Shown one piece after another: positions 43,301-61,692 of a stretch of 64,000 nt of DNA. This DNA comes from a virus, in the IMG/VR virus record IMGVR_UViG_3300040770_000184. The stretch is one strand, 5' to 3'. The notes under the pieces are model-generated. The model had not been told where the DNA came from, made no database searches, and saw only the letters and a list, made by a program, of their open reading frames with translations. Position 1 is the first letter of the stretch; every line of letters begins with the position of its first letter. The position numbers and the translations under genes were made by a program.

Positions 43301-43351
43301 CAGGCTCTAGATAGTCTTTCCTTGAACCCTTGGGTCAACCTCACACAGTAA
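31322..43351 (+). CDS. Virion-encapsidated RNA polymerase (N4 gp50-like), ~4,009 aa, with inserted SLOG-like domain
   Basis: T7-family motifs YVEADGISNGP (A), RGLTKNPLTITLYG (B), KIFDG (C); size; HELIH motif in C-terminal part; ATG at 31322 preferred over GTG at 31313. Confidence 0.95.
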   Translation: MPTFDSFQTLLDQATGVQPATPTDTKTDVLDRAGQIKKNQVAQASARKQEAMGPGVDSAYNIALSKLSSLGTLGRSDKENDLREMTPGQLYQKYGDQAGTLIKQVAQGTNAVMDTMNTPDRNAGQVAYDGATDIASGFGNALGGIAALGVGTVSSRGGAAISRELEEATRLNAAYQSDELRVRKQLAEDKNALAGRDNVEQRATDISNGDSELIAGLKSIGRETVNAVSIAGSDPAVLGSGVSNAVGSLLAAGPVSKGVSGLAGLAKLGDIGSKIATPVAIGAMESGGSYTQTVNDVMGRSHDQLLAESEDYRELVKTMSPDDAKLELANSTALKAAALTAPAAIAAGKLVSKFEGAPLSTMIRKAPGYVLKEPVEEGIQGASGQLAQNLAIQGSVDENQDLAEGVGRQAGEGALYGLGMTAVMGAPSGVVQAVGLAGKGTLAAGKAALGMMADRVDKQLQANKEASPLADKTVLAAATEAQATAGVEAPVMRQAVEETDATPEQKAEANSYIDSLVAANTYDVEADATPELLKPIMGDVKNRVEAIQRVAQYVNTVEEGSPAQMEAGVYLYDLVNGYQKLINSDPEALQKVPQDHPARTIVGQYVGLMDSLGKTPKVMDAIGKIQSALEKRAAKAVEITDEMLETPEGQKAVNDVINVAILAPEKGNLETTERVLNQVSRGKLQISPEQKAALDTSVAMLRAVAAADKEAQALGETDPVSLNISSVEGEKGPSLTQHAKGIMSAWKAGDRNTAAARLVEFHNFAKGMSNKLGAINTHFAAGDPKAVGVGYKIYVGGNLKDSPNVWRVYPNNVGSIKMAQKVGREAKMLADVYNNLVTAFPDLKGDHLDFIPLDPRLGIPAEEFVANHGKTTTPAEDAKTDTKAVPSGANDTRIPAGVSSLSNAVLATRLGNTNTNDPRYEIYQAEMDRREDAATLAEQQVAEKIAKAKEKAAIEETPKVVEKSPAVEKEAKPADKPAVTPVEEEVTSLASELEQVGGLAQFLGVRNTGVEPGAVPTLQQITDSLAGLLKALSEGAVTKQALASLLSWVDTSQEADAKRMERATYKKTDAKGEALPAEQVEANKAKYAERVALKAGTPRQYLTMQVAEELIEVLEAYLQNSDLAPDAPIFKLLEAQKRILKEYRFGAGTLVKDGGSPYNGLKNYQAVEKALEGIDIPVAWRETGVIEADVQALLAEEIKKLNPTMQAVTLAKVAVEAQPQPTTVSKAEPTETGSKTPEFDKLPSYDENNPSFTYAGIGSRQTPQAIQDLMTTLAERLSELGFTLMSGNAKGADQAFEAGVGKNSKEIFLVKDATDTTRAIAKEIHPSPNSLGDYALDLMARNTNQLFGKYLKLPVDFVLAWTPDGLEKSADRSIKSGGTGQAIDMASRKGIPVFNLATPDGLARFEAHIQKLESAAAAEGKAKPVEVIIVEESLEDSDSLIDFDAAMQEATVRDDAPMFMLEDTTTEAPAAPVVPTSVDMTQKLDVEMDEVPLTKEELDVPIMEAPIDDSGEGVAALFPRIMGVIKGVFSTSYKLPKVQKTRTIGTETPISFLRSALSNSANFTNLIGSSPKGKYDAKTAAEYGNLLDRAEEIVEKLKQNLANKLATDYKKGAKGTTIRELALGLKQIKTAKGVVYDPFRAADTKSMGITEQLNNTLEYNPELLEGAVLAGIQWFIDSDTRSDNLDEADVASMTGIDRAFVSSSMVDAMNTGTSLLDAKAALSSKILNYWGLSKENSGPIGYQSGVPEAIAGEIMRTFKEFGWLNADYYGVTKGGQFVKYDADGKAPLEMVKTLIQIRTEPLSKDSAVRAYPNALDMAVLIEPEEKTIIGDEGELAVSPTQMRNPDVKNTPQQLKTIANEQNTPYFLNLPMVNLFTAMGIDELKEAFVQVDTKNTLMNKNHRMSVEGQTQALASAFQSLTDTANRVDGYAEGGPLDQVPIRYAFNMSRVSRLQMLGKYTPQSNKLIREAIMPTRSVLDLTNAKDLFRFQLGLAQALGIKVHHKMPSAIKKDLAKRLDALAPTVQILESWVEKMGGLPTSLTPTMISNFKEAGIALTPVALHALVEKARYNKGMSLNAFNTAIYVEADGISNGPINAMMLFTVGGFTAQWLKTIAKGGMFIGHDRMTMNEHFTTTDAVDLYKTTANIHLKKMATLRKKLLKVAPDVAGQMDQLLVLMDLFMGSDMSFKEGVLTIDRGLTKNPLTITLYGSGAKGIAGNLVQSLTDALYERMSQTIEATSNQGMSPAEAMFGKQSSSLEEAQEKYAKFEKAFEALTTKVAVLNEDVGYALESVPETKRSEKESSLIEFTLSQQELSALRNNMHLLFVTPLTYAIKDTVGDSLLETTKLLRKATQVQSIFLAHAFKAELAKVLLEKGKDPLWNRNDFLTVEEVNKIKASIAHLAPNIVTEDQVFSIATGLVSPVGATTFGSALDGSFRSDPYLHAPKNAGVSGIPYMTIGAGDGLMMQLISTYSDAIEGTLKIFDGMNMPLDKIEEGSRQANAAVFESWSRNPLKAVYESYLAFTKVADTETLFEEMRPELTLALIGFTKEPVSYKRIMSEFNALPNMLNWAQQSIEARHRTVKKVNLSVDQMAAVGEPHVNKGTVVLDNSSYEAMEAQINVIYEEELADINKAERVDRTLNAELLLLTESHASGVEVLPASRLGELTTQMPKTQAAVMKEIIDTLAAEGYRIVFGGPEQIAKFNDAEGLYGNGGNSSEGLQGYTNIDSKVIYLHNNTTETFTHELIHAATFQAVLAHYLGTGTRRASMAVLRIEELMNQFLDLESSLIQVNSDVRDSYADAKAAIEDYLLDDTPGSKAAALNEFMAWTLANESLANIAKNTTATKFARIREAVLSFLKQLFNIKQEVGKDMLSNLLFNSTILIRSQPTVKERFTRTVLMQNSIYGDNDRLVSINESLNKTIGQYLKEKVHPNKVDATVALQTGIMQSYRVSQSFMAHGFDMNMQEASTFNTIVATLATEAKIDANAMATAQKLYVHAMKNLSYVDFMADPESTDPNVEALAREKFDVLSGKYLVAKDGLGRSTLLPAFLALATVNNEFRAVLAKVPVPKNTHNNAGTLDALLENTGNRLTGKLSNRMSGISKNSTNTQEAIDDLNTHIGNIIETRETFFDQVASKSGGLIDRSNEIVTNGMSLLSRKLITLAKKSEKPGTNKVLKFAAQASTGLAAVLDEEIAGAVADNLQGAINKTNMWTPVREMLGEFIGRTDSNANVYDMIKAVLTTVQQTRQQYREHLPVLIREKFSRELSSEEWGGLHRVLAKGDITALRDNYTNAELLKLMVSPSAVNKAIDDLQNQLKNTDSANYALLDEKMRQLAQFMVDGVPQKALLRNATAISRLLMTGVKSGFTSPASVKQIDSLVSLYALQNQSKDDMASLRTLAQDENAGLTFVLSYLDGQRKGEASKEATAAARLNVYKGYIPSQSNSESSIQVFDDSKYSELVAKSFERIGDYVGSSVESNRNRGYYYLPVASRSTFEQGIIQNVRETIGGVDATTGQTVAQTAGVIANPIAVRRILSRIKSDTNVESLMPVFDADGDVVAFERSLNPAMMERLGTESDLSKMLGVWRGRQVEESFARNYNETLINHLGAMLDKDLAESANNINEYVDLNKTKDPVLMKAVSLFSPATKKYAEQVFHGKFMVRKDMLNDVLGYHAATVGDFWTGNGRWSPETQKAVRNIAVSVFGNAAYRKLVTAESVLQNVVSDARVLIVIKSVIVPMANLLSNVYQLISRGVPLASITKGMGKKVAEIEAYTHARLREIEAEAELRAASGNAILERRLKTELQSIKDSYTRMSIWPLIKAGEFSGISDAGLLRADVDLTSGRLQAYIEQAAAKLPGSAATVGRYALVTKDTALFQGLQKAVEYGDFLAKAILYDDLTQRKGLSEAAALARITEEFVNYSRLSGRFRGALENNGILWFYNFKLRIVKIALSTIRNNPVHALLATVAPAPTTFGSVGMPTSDNFFTKLLEGTLDNSVGPGQALDSLSLNPWVNLTQ

Positions 43352-43352
43352 T

Positions 43353-43386
43353 AAAAAAAGCCCCTCAAATGAGGGGCTTCTTCTTT
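43353..43386. terminator. Bidirectional intrinsic terminator between convergent late and middle transcription
   Basis: AAAAAAAGCCCCTC-AAAT-GAGGGGCTTCTTCTTT; 7-T tract on minus strand. Confidence 0.9.
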
Positions 43387-43650
43387 GAACACCGGCTTGC
43401 GCCTGTTCCGGCAGATCTTTGGGTGTAGTAGCCCTGGCGGTTCTGCTCCTGCATACCCTGATCCGAATGCTTGATGCCTCCCGGCATTACTTTCCCAGTG
43501 AATTGCGGCAAAGCGTTTACTGGTTTTGATACGCGAAAATGCGCATCGGGGTGCGGTCGTCACCTTGCGGGCCAGGACGGACTATTCACCGTTTCCCGAC
43601 CCCGGAGAATCGAACTCCGTAGACCACACTCCGATACGATCTCTTGAAGT
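43385..43650 (-). ncRNA. Candidate structured non-coding RNA of unknown class
   Basis: No credible ORF; T-arm CGGAG-TTCGATT-CTCCG, GNRA-capped hairpins ATGCC-GGGA-GGCAT and GGC-GCAA-GCC, several further stems; bounded by hairpin terminators. Confidence 0.6.
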
Positions 43651-43673
43651 AAAGCCCCCTAACTCGGGGGCTT
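43651..43673 (-). terminator. Terminator-like hairpin overlapping stop of the 59-aa ORF
   Basis: AAGCCCCC-GAGTTA-GGGGGCTT followed by short T run. Confidence 0.65.
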
Positions 43674-43838
43674 ATCCTTTTGATCACCTGGGTAGTCTAT
43701 CCAATACAGGATACCGACGACTACTCCCACAACTAAGCCCACTGCAATAATGGGGGCTGCTGCAATGATGGCAGCAGTAATTACTACCACAGCCATCACT
43801 ACCATAAACGCCCAAAGCAGTATTTTGTTGATGAACAT
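43659..43838 (-). CDS. Small two-TM membrane protein (59 aa, MFINKILLWAFMVVMAVVV...), not in ORF track
   Basis: ATG overlaps TAA of 43838..44284 (TAATG); two long hydrophobic helices and charged tail. Confidence 0.75.
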   Translation of the reverse strand: MFINKILLWAFMVVMAVVVITAAIIAAAPIIAVGLVVGVVVGILYWIDYPGDQKDKPPS

Positions 43839-45614: not shown

Positions 45615-45638
45615 ATTCTCTTTAATAATTGGGGCATG

Positions 45639-45662
45639 CTCTAGGGGAAAATTCCCCTAGAG
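45639..45662. repeat. Intergenic inverted repeat upstream of SSB
   Basis: CTCTAGGGG-AAAATT-CCCCTAGAG, perfect 9-bp stem. Confidence 0.6.
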
Positions 45663-45676
45663 AGTTTCACGCTGGC

Positions 45677-49639: not shown

Positions 49640-49679
49640 GGTGGGACCCTCAGAACTGGGGCTTATTTAGCCCCTTGGT

Positions 49680-54776: not shown

Positions 54777-54790
54777 TGGGGGATTCTCCT

Positions 54791-54816
54791 AAGAAAAACC
54801 CCCGATATACGGGGGT
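54791..54816 (-). terminator. Intrinsic terminator
   Basis: ACCCCCG-TATAT-CGGGGGT followed by TTTTCTT on minus strand. Confidence 0.75.
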
Positions 54817-54836
54817 CTTTACTGCCTGATTCCAGC

Positions 54837-59796: not shown

Positions 59797-59824
59797 CAGG
59801 GATACTCCTAATTAGAAATAAGGC

Positions 59825-59846
59825 AACCCACCATTGCTGGTGGGTT
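59825..59846 (-). terminator. Stem-loop after thyX
   Basis: AACCCACCA-GCAA-TGGTGGGTT on minus strand (GNRA loop). Confidence 0.6.
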
Positions 59847-59864
59847 ACGAACCAAGAAAAGTGA

Positions 59865-60683: not shown

Positions 60684-60716
60684 ACAAAAAACCCCCTCAC
60701 ATAGAGGGGGTTTTTC
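60684..60716. terminator. Bidirectional-type intrinsic terminator
   Basis: AAAAAACCCCCTC-ACATA-GAGGGGGTTTTT. Confidence 0.8.
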
Positions 60717-60743
60717 TTACGGTGCTAGACCGGCGCAGGGATT

Positions 60744-61420: not shown

Positions 61421-61473
61421 AACACTTCCTTCTTAGTGAGAGTTAAAGGGGCCTTGCCCCCAAGACAACATAA

Positions 61474-61692
61474 CTATAACTTCTCTGCGGCCAACATGTC
61501 AGCTAACCACTCTTGCAACTTTTCTTCGTAAATCTCCTCACCTTCGCAGTTATTTAGGAGATACGCAGTGAAGCGTTCCCACATCTCCAGTTCTTTAATA
61601 CGGGCACCGGCTACTTTAAGAAGCTCACCTTGCTCAACAATGGTTTTACGCTGAGCTTCGTTTCGTTGCTCAAGTGTCCGTTCGGTCTGCAT
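61474..61692 (-). CDS. Hypothetical coiled-coil protein
   Basis: GGGGAG SD before ATG at 61692. Confidence 0.65.
   Translation of the reverse strand: MQTERTLEQRNEAQRKTIVEQGELLKVAGARIKELEMWERFTAYLLNNCEGEEIYEEKLQEWLADMLAAEKL

What the first reader, a model, noticed from the sequence alone, without database searches (positions are those of the whole stretch)
43385..43650. Orphan ~270-nt structured ncRNA candidate with a tRNA T-arm and GNRA hairpins, between vRNAP and replication genes
This is one of the largest ORF-free gaps in a tightly packed genome, bracketed by two hairpin terminators. Seen on the minus strand: a perfect T-arm CGGAG-TTCGATT-CTCCG (43619-43603); GGTCG/CGACC (43601-43597/43559-43555) enclosing ACGG-TGAATAGT-CCGT and a weak CC-GCAA-GG; GATGCGC/GCGTATC (43547-43528); CCAGT/ACTGG (43523-43495); ATGCC-GGGA-GGCAT (43487-43474); GCAGA/TCTGC enclosing GGG/CCC (43446-43411); and GAACA-GGC-GCAA-GCC-GG-TGTTC (43408-43387), then a 7-U terminator. 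GGTGAAT can also pair with ATTCACT as a pseudoknot or switch. The T-arm is at the 5' end with no D/anticodon arms or CCA, so it is not a tRNA. Inference: a tRNA-mimic or large tertiary-structured RNA. It could be a decoy for anticodon nucleases or tRNA-sensing defences, a ribozyme, or an RsmA/CsrA sponge (8 GGA trinucleotides counted, only modestly above chance).
Basis: partly seen in the sequence, partly recalled or inferred. Interest (0 to 1): 0.85.

Follow-up and report, generated by a model that had tools for sequence, protein, structure and literature searches.

The report
Portable sealed tRNA-like RNA module
The flagged gap of this N4-like phage does not hold one 270-base RNA but a compact 93-base RNA fold that copies the upper half of a tRNA with its acceptor end sealed. 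This fold is the only sequence the phage shares with an unrelated Pseudomonas phage, which points to a small exchangeable RNA gene that probably mimics tRNA or tmRNA.

Summary
Partly confirmed. The real feature is a 93-nt module on the minus strand (43636..43544). It has a 15-17 bp closing stem, a canonical T-arm, an 8-bp acceptor-like stem sealed by a variable hairpin, and an invariant 10-nt stem-less D-loop-like joiner.

The module recurs at 81% identity in the unrelated P22-like Pseudomonas phage AH02, with which this phage shares nothing else. All 12 stem substitutions between the two copies keep pairing (simulation P <= 7e-5). The G-U pairs and folding energies favour the minus strand.

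The other ~150 nt fold no better than shuffles (z +0.63). A 40-codon ORF there is broken by stops in a relative, and relatives carry other cassettes in this region.

The topology matches the tRNA-like domain of permuted tmRNA and of YrlA Y RNAs. An N4-like relative carries a genuine permuted tmRNA in the same slot. The module nevertheless fails the tRNA, YrlA and tmRNA membership tests: no Rfam hit, no Ro60, no CCA, no tag frame.

Best reading: a trans-acting tRNA/tmRNA-elbow mimic, a decoy or scaffold for a host factor. Function is inferred and expression untested. This scan has noted other permuted tRNA-like phage RNAs, but not this sequence.

The parts
43652..43673 (-). T1: GC-rich hairpin overlapping the stop codon of the 59-aa ORF. 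Its tail on the minus strand is weak (UUUACUU). It is probably a leaky intercistronic hairpin that lets transcription run into the module.
   Evidence: Read directly and listed by the scan. Similar hairpins with weak U tracts stand between genes of the same minus-strand operon, so read-through is normal there. Read-through here is inferred.
43544..43636 (-). The module: a 93-nt three-way-junction RNA. The closing stem can extend by two or three pairs, to 43638/43542.
   Evidence: 81% identical to phage AH02 (L001:3001-3092), the only hit among 50,697 phage records. The same MFE fold is predicted independently in both copies, with z -4.4 and -4.8. 31 pairs are 98% paired, against 48% or less when the partners are slid. 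Simulation P <= 7e-5.
43622..43636 (-). P1, 5' strand of the long closing stem. It corresponds to the 3' strand of the anticodon stem of a tRNA, or to helix P2 of tmRNA.
   Evidence: 15 pairs. Two G-C to A-U double changes, one A.C to U-A change and one U-G to U-A change separate the window from AH02.
43603..43619 (-). T-arm: a 5-bp stem and the loop UUCGAUU, with G53-C61, U54, U55, C56, R57 and A58 all canonical. A 2-nt linker UA (43621-43620) precedes it.
   Evidence: Read directly. It is the only such site in the window. The loop and linker are identical in AH02.
43569..43602 (-). P3: an 8-bp acceptor-like stem that follows the T-arm without a gap (13 stacked pairs). It is sealed by an internal loop and a 3-bp apical hairpin (43591-43578), so there is no free 5' or 3' end and no CCA.
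   Evidence: One G-C to C-G double change and one G-C to G-U change. All five loop substitutions and the single 1-nt indel between the copies lie in the apical part.
43559..43568 (-). Joiner GCAAGGUGAC: an unpaired, stem-less D-loop analogue with a GG that could dock on the T-loop.
   Evidence: 10 of 10 identical in AH02. It resembles the D-loop analogue of the Rfam permuted-tmRNA consensus (..UGGuUUCGAC) printed. The docking is inferred.
43544..43558 (-). P1, 3' strand.
43380..43543 (-). Spacer between the module and T2. It is not significantly structured and not coding.
   Evidence: z +0.63. The 40-codon ORF 43487..43365 (-) acquires three stops in a relative's contig. Relatives diverge at 43395, 43412 or 43490 and rejoin at 43629-43642.
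43352..43379 (.). T2: a bidirectional intrinsic terminator, with a 9-bp stem and a 7-U tail on the minus strand. It is shared with relatives and is the likely 3' end of the transcript that carries the module.
   Evidence: Read directly and found by the scan. 82-85% identical in phages CL and Arace01 and in L191.

Best explanation
Shown:
- The functional unit is a self-contained ~93-97-nt RNA on the minus strand (43636..43544).
- It folds into the upper half ('elbow') of a tRNA: a canonical T-arm stacked on an acceptor-like stem, a conserved stem-less D-loop analogue, and a long closing stem where the anticodon stem would be.
- The acceptor end is sealed by a hairpin and there is no anticodon loop.
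- This is the topology of the tRNA-like domain of a permuted tmRNA precursor, and of YrlA Y RNAs.

Inferred:
- With no free acceptor end and no anticodon loop, it can be neither charged nor decoded.
- It is transcribed at the 3' end of the replication/recombination operon, by read-through of the leaky hairpin T1, and ends at terminator T2.
- The 17-18 bp closing stem may allow it to be cut out.
- It acts in trans as a mimic that binds a host protein which reads the tRNA or tmRNA elbow. Candidates are SmpB, TruB/TrmA, RNase P and Ro60/Rsr.
- The effect would be to titrate that protein or to recruit it. No phage-encoded partner is shared by the two carrier phages, so the partner should be a host factor.
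- It moves between unrelated Pseudomonas phages as a small cassette.
For: - Only one record among 50,697 phage records matches: the P22-like phage AH02, exactly over the module.
- Apart from the module, the two genomes share no DNA stretch and no credible protein; blastp gave only two marginal hits (27-32 aa, E about 1e-3) that I judge spurious.
- Of 17 substitutions, 12 lie in stems and none breaks a pair. There are 3 double compensatory changes, one mismatch repaired by changes on both sides, and 4 changes to or from G-U. Random substitutions leave 22-24 of 31 pairs, and the probability of reaching the observed value is <= 7e-5.
- The T-loop, linker and joiner are 19 of 19 identical, while the apical loop of P3 differs at 6 of 12 positions.
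- There are 4-6 G-U pairs, and the sense-strand MFE is -47.6 and -42.2 against -38.7 and -29.9 kcal/mol for the antisense strand. This fixes the strand.
- A 1-nt indel between the copies excludes a shared ORF.
- When un-permuted in silico, both copies are called a D-armless tRNA by ARAGORN in -mt mode only.
- The N4-like relative L192 has a genuine permuted tmRNA in the same slot, directly 3' of the homologous small ORF on the same strand (Rfam RF04321, 84.7 bits).
- In AH02 the module also lies at the 3' end of the early/recombination operon, after ninG.
- There is a precedent. A coding-sequence-less mini-tmRNA of mycobacteriophage DS6A inhibits the host tmRNA when expressed in E. coli (Mao et al. 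2009, as cited in PMC11915505).
- YrlA Y RNAs have the same arm order and are substrates of tRNA-modifying enzymes (PMC4201824).
Against: - Only two full copies are known, so the covariation rests on one pairwise comparison.
- There are no RNA data at all, and no sigma-70-like promoter. Expression depends on assumed read-through of T1.
- No binding partner is identified. The choice among SmpB, TruB, RNase P and Rsr is open.
- The module fails the covariance models of YrlA and of permuted tmRNA, so the resemblance is one of topology, not of demonstrated homology.
- Close relatives do without it and carry other cassettes, so it is dispensable for the phage type.
Confidence: 0.55

Rival explanations
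1. It acts in cis. In this reading it is a tRNA-shaped processing or stability element at the 3' end of the operon, either an RNase P or RNase III entry site or a barrier to 3' exonucleases. It would define or protect the end of the upstream mRNA rather than act in trans.
For: In both phages it lies at the 3' end of an operon, in sense orientation. The 17-18 bp closing stem is near RNase III substrate length. Hairpins between cistrons are common in this operon.
Against: A plain hairpin would do for stability. The invariant T-loop and joiner imply recognition of a tRNA-like tertiary shape. The sealed acceptor offers RNase P no 5' leader to cut. In the window a hairpin (T1) already ends the last gene upstream of the module.
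Confidence: 0.2
2. It is a decaying relic of a tRNA or permuted tmRNA gene that once stood in this RNA-gene hot spot, and it has no present function.
For: Relatives carry tRNA-Gln, tRNA-Asn and sometimes tRNA-Asp next to the same terminator. One relative carries a permuted tmRNA in exactly this slot. The module lacks CCA, G3:U70 and a tag frame.
Against: A relic would not keep 31 of 31 pairs through 12 stem substitutions. It would not be the only sequence shared with an unrelated phage. There is no sequence similarity to the relatives' tRNAs or tmRNA. The tRNAs of relatives are on the other strand and on the other side of the terminator.
Confidence: 0.12
3. It is a selfish DNA element with terminal inverted repeats (MITE- or REP-like), or a DNA-level signal such as a cruciform or an origin. 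The RNA fold would then be incidental.
For: It has 15-18 bp terminal inverted repeats and lies in intergenic sites of two unrelated phages. One boundary of homology with relatives (43638) coincides with the foot of the stem. Its GC content is 61% against 48% for the window.
Against: There is a single copy per genome. Neither phage encodes a transposase, and no target duplication is seen. The 4-6 G-U pairs would be A.C mismatches on the other strand. The internal helices also covary. The canonical T-loop and the joiner are invariant.
Confidence: 0.08
4. One reading: one ~270-nt tertiary-structured RNA spanning the whole gap, acting as a ribozyme, a CsrA sponge or an anticodon-nuclease decoy.
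For: The whole gap folds with z about -4, and many hairpins can be drawn.
Against: Without the module and the terminator, z is +0.63. AH02 shares only 93 nt. Relatives swap the rest. GGA is not enriched. There is no anticodon loop.
Confidence: 0.03

Closest known systems
tRNA-like domain of two-piece (permuted) tmRNA (Rfam RF04321, RF01849), and the coding-sequence-less mini-tmRNA of mycobacteriophage DS6A (Mao et al. 2009, cited in PMC11915505)
   Same: - The order of parts in the gene is the same: long helix, short linker, T-arm, acceptor 3' strand, loop, acceptor 5' strand, stem-less D-loop analogue, long helix.
- The T-loop UUCGAUU equals the model consensus.
- The joiner resembles ..GG..GAC of the consensus.
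- A real permuted tmRNA occupies the same slot and strand in the N4-like relative L192.
- DS6A shows that a phage RNA with only the tRNA-like domain can interfere with host trans-translation.
   Different: - The acceptor is sealed by a short structured hairpin, with no CCA and no G3:U70.
- There are no pseudoknots and no tag reading frame downstream.
- The covariance models give no match at E <= 10, and ARAGORN finds nothing.
- The presumed hosts (Pseudomonas) use one-piece tmRNA.
YrlA-type bacterial and phage Y RNAs (Rfam RF02553; Chen et al. 2014, PMC4201824)
   Same: - It is a circularly permuted tRNA mimic: T-arm, then a sealed acceptor-like stem-loop, then the D region, all closed by a stem formed from the RNA's flanks.
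- It also occurs in phages.
   Different: - No D-arm stem and no V arm.
- No GNCGAAN0-1G Ro-binding motif.
- No Ro60/TROVE gene in the phage.
- No model match.
Phage tRNA genes next to the same terminator in Schitoviridae relatives (tRNA-Gln, tRNA-Asn, tRNA-Asp in Zuri, Arace01, CL, UCB24)
   Same: They lie in the same intergenic region, downstream of the vRNAP gene, and have a canonical T-arm.
   Different: They are on the opposite strand and on the other side of the shared terminator. They are complete cloverleaves, and there is no sequence similarity.
Other permuted, acceptor-sealed tRNA-like RNAs of phages noted earlier in this scan (with Ro60-like or DUF7873 neighbours)
   Same: The design principle is the same: a tRNA upper half with a sealed acceptor, in phage genomes and absent from Rfam.
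   Different: The sequence family differs, since the sequence look-up found none. Apart from two marginal short blastp hits judged spurious, no protein gene co-occurs with it in the two carrier phages.

Membership tests
canonical tRNA | Cloverleaf with D-arm, anticodon arm and a free acceptor end, recognised by tRNA finders | tested here: not met
   ARAGORN finds 0 genes in the window and in AH02. There is no Rfam tRNA match.
canonical tRNA | T-arm with G53-C61 and loop U54 U55 C56 R57 A58 | tested here: met
   CGGAG-UUCGAUU-CUCCG at 43619-43603.
YrlA (RF02553) | Match to the Rfam covariance model (gathering score 69 bits) | tested here: not met
   No match at E <= 10 in the whole phage genome.
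YrlA (RF02553) | Arm order: T-arm, sealed acceptor-like stem-loop, D region, closed by a terminal stem | tested here: met
   The fold and the pair counts agree. The order is as described in PMC4201824.
YrlA (RF02553) | Nearly invariant D stem-loop and a GNCGAAN0-1G motif near the 5' end | tested here: not met
   The joiner is 10 unpaired nt. The motif is absent upstream of the stem in both copies.
YrlA (RF02553) | Ro60/Rsr (TROVE) gene nearby on the same strand | tested here: not met
   PF05731 is not found in the 73-kb phage genome. The host genome is unknown.
tmRNA (permuted form, RF04321/RF01849) | Match to the covariance model or to ARAGORN | tested here: not met
   The same tools do find the tmRNA of relative L192.
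tmRNA (permuted form, RF04321/RF01849) | Chargeable acceptor stem: free ends after processing, G3:U70, 3' CCA | tested here: not met
   The stem is closed by a structured 18-nt cap. GAAA or GUUA follows the 3' strand. The wobble pairs are U.G and G.U at other positions.
tmRNA (permuted form, RF04321/RF01849) | Tag reading frame ending in Ala-Ala-stop downstream of the tRNA-like domain | tested here: not met
   No frame in 43543-43352 ends that way (reading). AH02 shares nothing downstream.
tmRNA (permuted form, RF04321/RF01849) | Topology of the tRNA-like domain: long helix, T-arm, acceptor, stem-less D-loop analogue | tested here: met
   Compare the structure line with that.
MITE / REP-like repeat | Several copies per genome, target-site duplication, transposase-recognised ends | tested here: not met
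   One copy in each of the two genomes. No duplication is seen.

The most novel reading that the evidence does not exclude
The module is a sealed, unchargeable mimic of the tRNA-like domain of tmRNA. Unrelated Pseudomonas phages exchange it and use it to soak up SmpB or another reader of the tRNA elbow. This would switch off host trans-translation or a tRNA-sensing defence during the replication phase. It would be an RNA-only anti-host device of under 100 nt.
Probability: 0.15. Interest if true: 0.8.

Novelty: new variant of a known kind. Interest (0 to 1): 0.5.

Why it matters
Phage RNAs that imitate tRNA without being tRNA are only beginning to be catalogued: Y RNAs with Ro60, and mini-tmRNA.

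This one is unusually small and has no protein partner shared by the two phages that carry it. It is the only sequence shared by two unrelated phages, which argues that the RNA itself is the selected, transferable function.

One carrier, AH02, is a cultured phage with a cultured host. The idea is therefore directly testable by northern blot, pull-down and deletion.

If the partner is SmpB or a tRNA-modifying or tRNA-processing enzyme, this would show a new and very compact way for phages to interfere with host translation quality control or tRNA metabolism.

The finding also marks the region downstream of the vRNAP gene in Schitoviridae as a hot spot where tRNAs, tmRNA and tRNA-like RNAs are swapped.

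Tried and rejected
- **Rfam 15.** Searched at gathering score and at E <= 10. Only terminator-like noise came up.
- **Known families.** The YrlA model, the TROVE domain and the permuted-tmRNA model were searched in the phage genome, and the last also in AH02. None matched.
- **Search for more copies.**
  - Five pattern scans of IMG/VR, one of 185,579 species genomes and one of JGI metagenomes, using T-loop, P3 and joiner motifs, gave only chance matches in coding regions or next to ordinary tRNAs.
  - The covariance model R1 was run over nine N4-like relatives and 120 candidate loci, with nothing found.
  - The plasmid collection gave nothing.
  - An even sample of 401 genomes of the class containing G001 (a contig labelled an uncultured Klebsiella MAG; no names or kinship are told for these genomes) gave only 24-37-nt chance hits.
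- **Decayed tRNA-Gln or tRNA-Asn on the plus strand.** The alignment to relatives was unconvincing, and BLAST found only the shared terminator.
- **Small protein.** The 40-codon ORF 43487..43365 (-) has an SD-like GGGA. It gets three stops in a relative, and its substitutions show no codon periodicity.
- **Shared protein partner.** blastp between the two carrier genomes gave only two marginal short hits that I judge spurious, and blastn found only the module.
- **put-like antitermination RNA.** Considered because AH02 lacks Q. AH02 also lacks the late terminator that PAJU2 has, and in the window nothing lies downstream to be antiterminated.
- **Promoter.** No sigma-70-like site was found.
- **Expression.** No RNA run holds the stretch. 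The runs labelled RNA-Seq are probably DNA and only show relatives' contigs.
- **Relative with the alternative cassette.** It could not be fetched from IMG/VR.

Full report
**Context.** The window is a Schitoviridae (N4-like) phage genome of 73 kb. The 4012-aa virion RNA polymerase gene ends at 43351 on the plus strand. The replication/recombination operon runs on the minus strand, with a primase, an AAA_24 (Sak4-like) ATPase, and further genes that by synteny with the annotated relatives correspond to SSB and a resolvase (no Pfam hit here), and it ends with a 59-aa ORF (43659..43838). The flagged gap, 43352-43658, lies between these converging units. The closest relatives have only 60-68% amino-acid identity in the C-terminal part of vRNAP. 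They infect Pseudomonas, Erwinia and Stenotrophomonas.

**Check of the observation.**
- ARAGORN finds no tRNA or tmRNA, and Rfam 15 finds nothing.
- The whole gap folds better than shuffles on both strands, with z about -4. When it is split, a 93-nt module gives z -4.4, while the other 150 nt give z +0.63 on the minus strand and -1.1 on the plus strand.
- A T-arm of this pattern is expected 0.35 times per window by chance.
- GGA is not enriched, at 8 against 5.8 +/- 2.0.
- So only the module and the terminators are more than chance.

**The module.** BLAST against 50,697 phage records finds one hit, the P22-like Pseudomonas phage AH02. The hit covers exactly 43636..43544 at 81% identity, in an unannotated gap and in the sense of the flanking genes.

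Both copies independently fold into the same three-way junction:
- P1, a closing stem of 15 pairs, extendable to 17 in the window and 18 in AH02.
- A 2-nt linker.
- A canonical T-arm.
- P3, an 8-bp stem that follows the T-arm directly and is sealed by an internal loop and a 3-bp hairpin.
- A 10-nt unpaired joiner, GCAAGGUGAC.

The two copies differ by 17 substitutions and one 1-nt indel. Twelve substitutions lie in stems, and none breaks a pair. There are three double compensatory changes, one A.C mismatch turned into U-A by changes on both sides, and four changes to or from G-U. In 100,000 simulations with 17 random substitutions, only 22-24 of 31 pairs stay canonical on average. The observed 31 is reached with P <= 7e-5.

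The T-loop, linker and joiner are 19 of 19 identical, whereas the apical loop of P3 differs at 6 of 12 positions. By my own hypergeometric estimate this contrast has P about 0.001.

Four to six G-U pairs and the lower energy of the sense strand fix the window's minus strand as the functional one. The indel rules out a shared reading frame.

**The rest of the gap.**
- The 40-codon ORF 43487..43365 (-) acquires three stop codons in a relative's contig from wastewater.
- Contigs of relatives match the window up to 43395, 43412 or 43490 and again from 43629-43642. They carry 175 or 262 other letters in between.
- The interior of the gap is therefore a swappable cassette, and one boundary (43638) coincides with the foot of P1.
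- In other relatives the two genes are 12 or 130 nt apart.
- Phages CL, UCB24, Zuri and Arace01 carry tRNA-Gln and tRNA-Asn, and Zuri also tRNA-Asp. These lie on the vRNAP strand, between the vRNAP stop and the shared bidirectional terminator. That is the other side of the terminator from the window's insert.
- No trace of those tRNAs remains in the window.

**What the module resembles.** Read as a tRNA, the parts map as follows:
- P3 is the acceptor stem, with the T-arm 3' strand running straight into it.
- The joiner takes the place of positions 8-26, with GG but no D stem.
- P1 takes the place of the anticodon stem.
- UA takes the place of the variable loop.

The acceptor is closed and the anticodon stem is open. 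When the construct is re-opened and re-closed in silico, ARAGORN calls both copies a D-armless tRNA in its mitochondrial mode only. This is a heuristic test.

The same topology is described for YrlA Y RNAs (PMC4201824). However, the YrlA model gives no match, there is no D stem and no GNCGAAN0-1G motif, and the phage has no TROVE protein.

The nearest match in design is the tRNA-like domain of permuted tmRNA. The Rfam consensus has the same order of parts, the same T-loop UUCGAUU and a stem-less D-loop analogue ending in GAC. The N4-like relative L192 carries a genuine permuted tmRNA directly 3' of the homologous 60-aa ORF, on the same strand (RF04321 84.7 bits, RF01849 58.5 bits, ARAGORN tag ending in LAA). 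That is the slot of the window's module.

Even so, the module has no CCA, no G3:U70, no tag frame and no model match. It works like a tRNA/tmRNA upper half but is not a member of any of these families.

**Genomic logic.** Apart from this module, the window's genome and AH02 share no DNA stretch and no credible protein; blastp gave only two marginal short hits that I judge spurious. Each has a single copy.

In AH02 the module follows ninG at the 3' end of the early-right operon. It lies just before a 115-nt element that AH02 shares with PAJU2-type phages, where it lies between the Q gene and the lysis genes. AH02 lacks both Q and the terminator that follows this element in PAJU2.

In the window the module follows the last gene of the replication operon, behind hairpin T1. 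T1 has a weak U tract and resembles several hairpins that stand between genes of the same operon. The strong terminator T2 follows 160 nt later.

I infer transcription by read-through and a trans-acting product. No promoter was found and no RNA data exist.

**Mechanism proposed.** The steps below are inferred.
- The RNA presents a tRNA/tmRNA elbow that cannot be charged or decoded.
- It binds a host factor that reads this shape. The two carrier phages share no protein that could serve as a phage-encoded partner.
- SmpB is the most specific candidate. This rests on the tmRNA-like D-loop analogue, on the tmRNA in the same slot of a relative, and on the report that a coding-sequence-less phage mini-tmRNA inhibits host tmRNA (Mao et al. 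2009, cited in PMC11915505).
- TruB/TrmA, RNase P and Rsr are alternatives.
- Rival readings are a cis-acting 3' processing element, a relic of an RNA gene, and a selfish inverted-repeat element. They are weighed in their own sections.

**Reach of the family.** Seven pattern scans, model searches and BLAST found no further full copy. Two short wastewater contigs match parts of the stretch at about 88%. One covers 43573-43615, inside the module. The other covers 43520-43553, across the module's 3' edge and into the adjacent spacer. Both are far beyond chance by my estimate, so more variants exist but could not be retrieved.

**Earlier notes of this scan.** They describe other permuted, acceptor-sealed tRNA-like RNAs in phages with Ro60-like or DUF7873 neighbours. 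The sequence look-up found no copy of this one.

**Verdict.** This is a real, conserved, strand-specific structured RNA module of a tRNA-mimic kind, not in Rfam, and a new variant of a known kind. The 270-nt reading, the sponge, the ribozyme and the anticodon-nuclease decoy are not supported. The function remains an inference.

Noticed in passing
L192:5298-5662 (minus strand); IMG/VR contig IMGVR_UViG_3300043409_001646: An N4-like relative carries a complete permuted (two-piece) tmRNA gene directly 3' of its 60-aa ORF, which is the slot of the window's module. Scores are Rfam RF04321 84.7 bits and RF01849 58.5 bits, and the ARAGORN tag is VNDNQPVMALRLAA.
   Followed up: partly
L121, L122, L123, L124 (phages CL, UCB24, Zuri, Arace01), about 50-350 nt downstream of the vRNAP stop: These relatives carry tRNA-Gln(ttg) and tRNA-Asn(gtt), and Zuri also tRNA-Asp. 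The genes lie on the vRNAP strand before the shared bidirectional terminator. The window has no tRNA gene at all.
   Followed up: yes
L001:3097-3211 (AH02); L223:1501-1615 (PAJU2): A 115-nt non-coding element just after the AH02 module is 86-88% identical in PAJU2, Shamal, YA3, D14C and other P. aeruginosa phages, and 74% identical in Cronobacter phage ES2. It lies between Q and the lysis genes. AH02 lacks both the Q gene and the terminator that follows this element in PAJU2. It has no Rfam match.
   Followed up: partly
window 43395-43642, seen through contigs of runs X2-X6, X19, X20: Relatives in wastewater and freshwater metagenomes keep the flanks but carry 175 or 262 other letters in place of the module region. 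The loose end of one short contig contains AAGGGTGACGATC, which is close to the module's joiner plus the start of P1. This may be a deleted or rearranged derivative.
   Followed up: partly
window 43573-43615 and 43520-43553, contigs of runs X20 and X23: Two very short contigs (78 and 42 nt) match at about 88%. The first lies inside the module. The second spans the module's 3' edge and the adjacent spacer. They hint at further variants in wastewater. One is flanked by what I recognise as library adapter sequence.
   Followed up: no
window 45615-45676, 49640-49679, 54777-54836, 59797-59864, 60684-60743, 61421-61669 (minus strand): GC-rich hairpins, some with U tracts, stand between many genes of the replication operon. 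They look like partial terminators or RNA-stability elements that must be read through.
   Followed up: no
window 43544-43636: The module has 61% G+C against 48% for the window, which fits acquisition from elsewhere.
   Followed up: no
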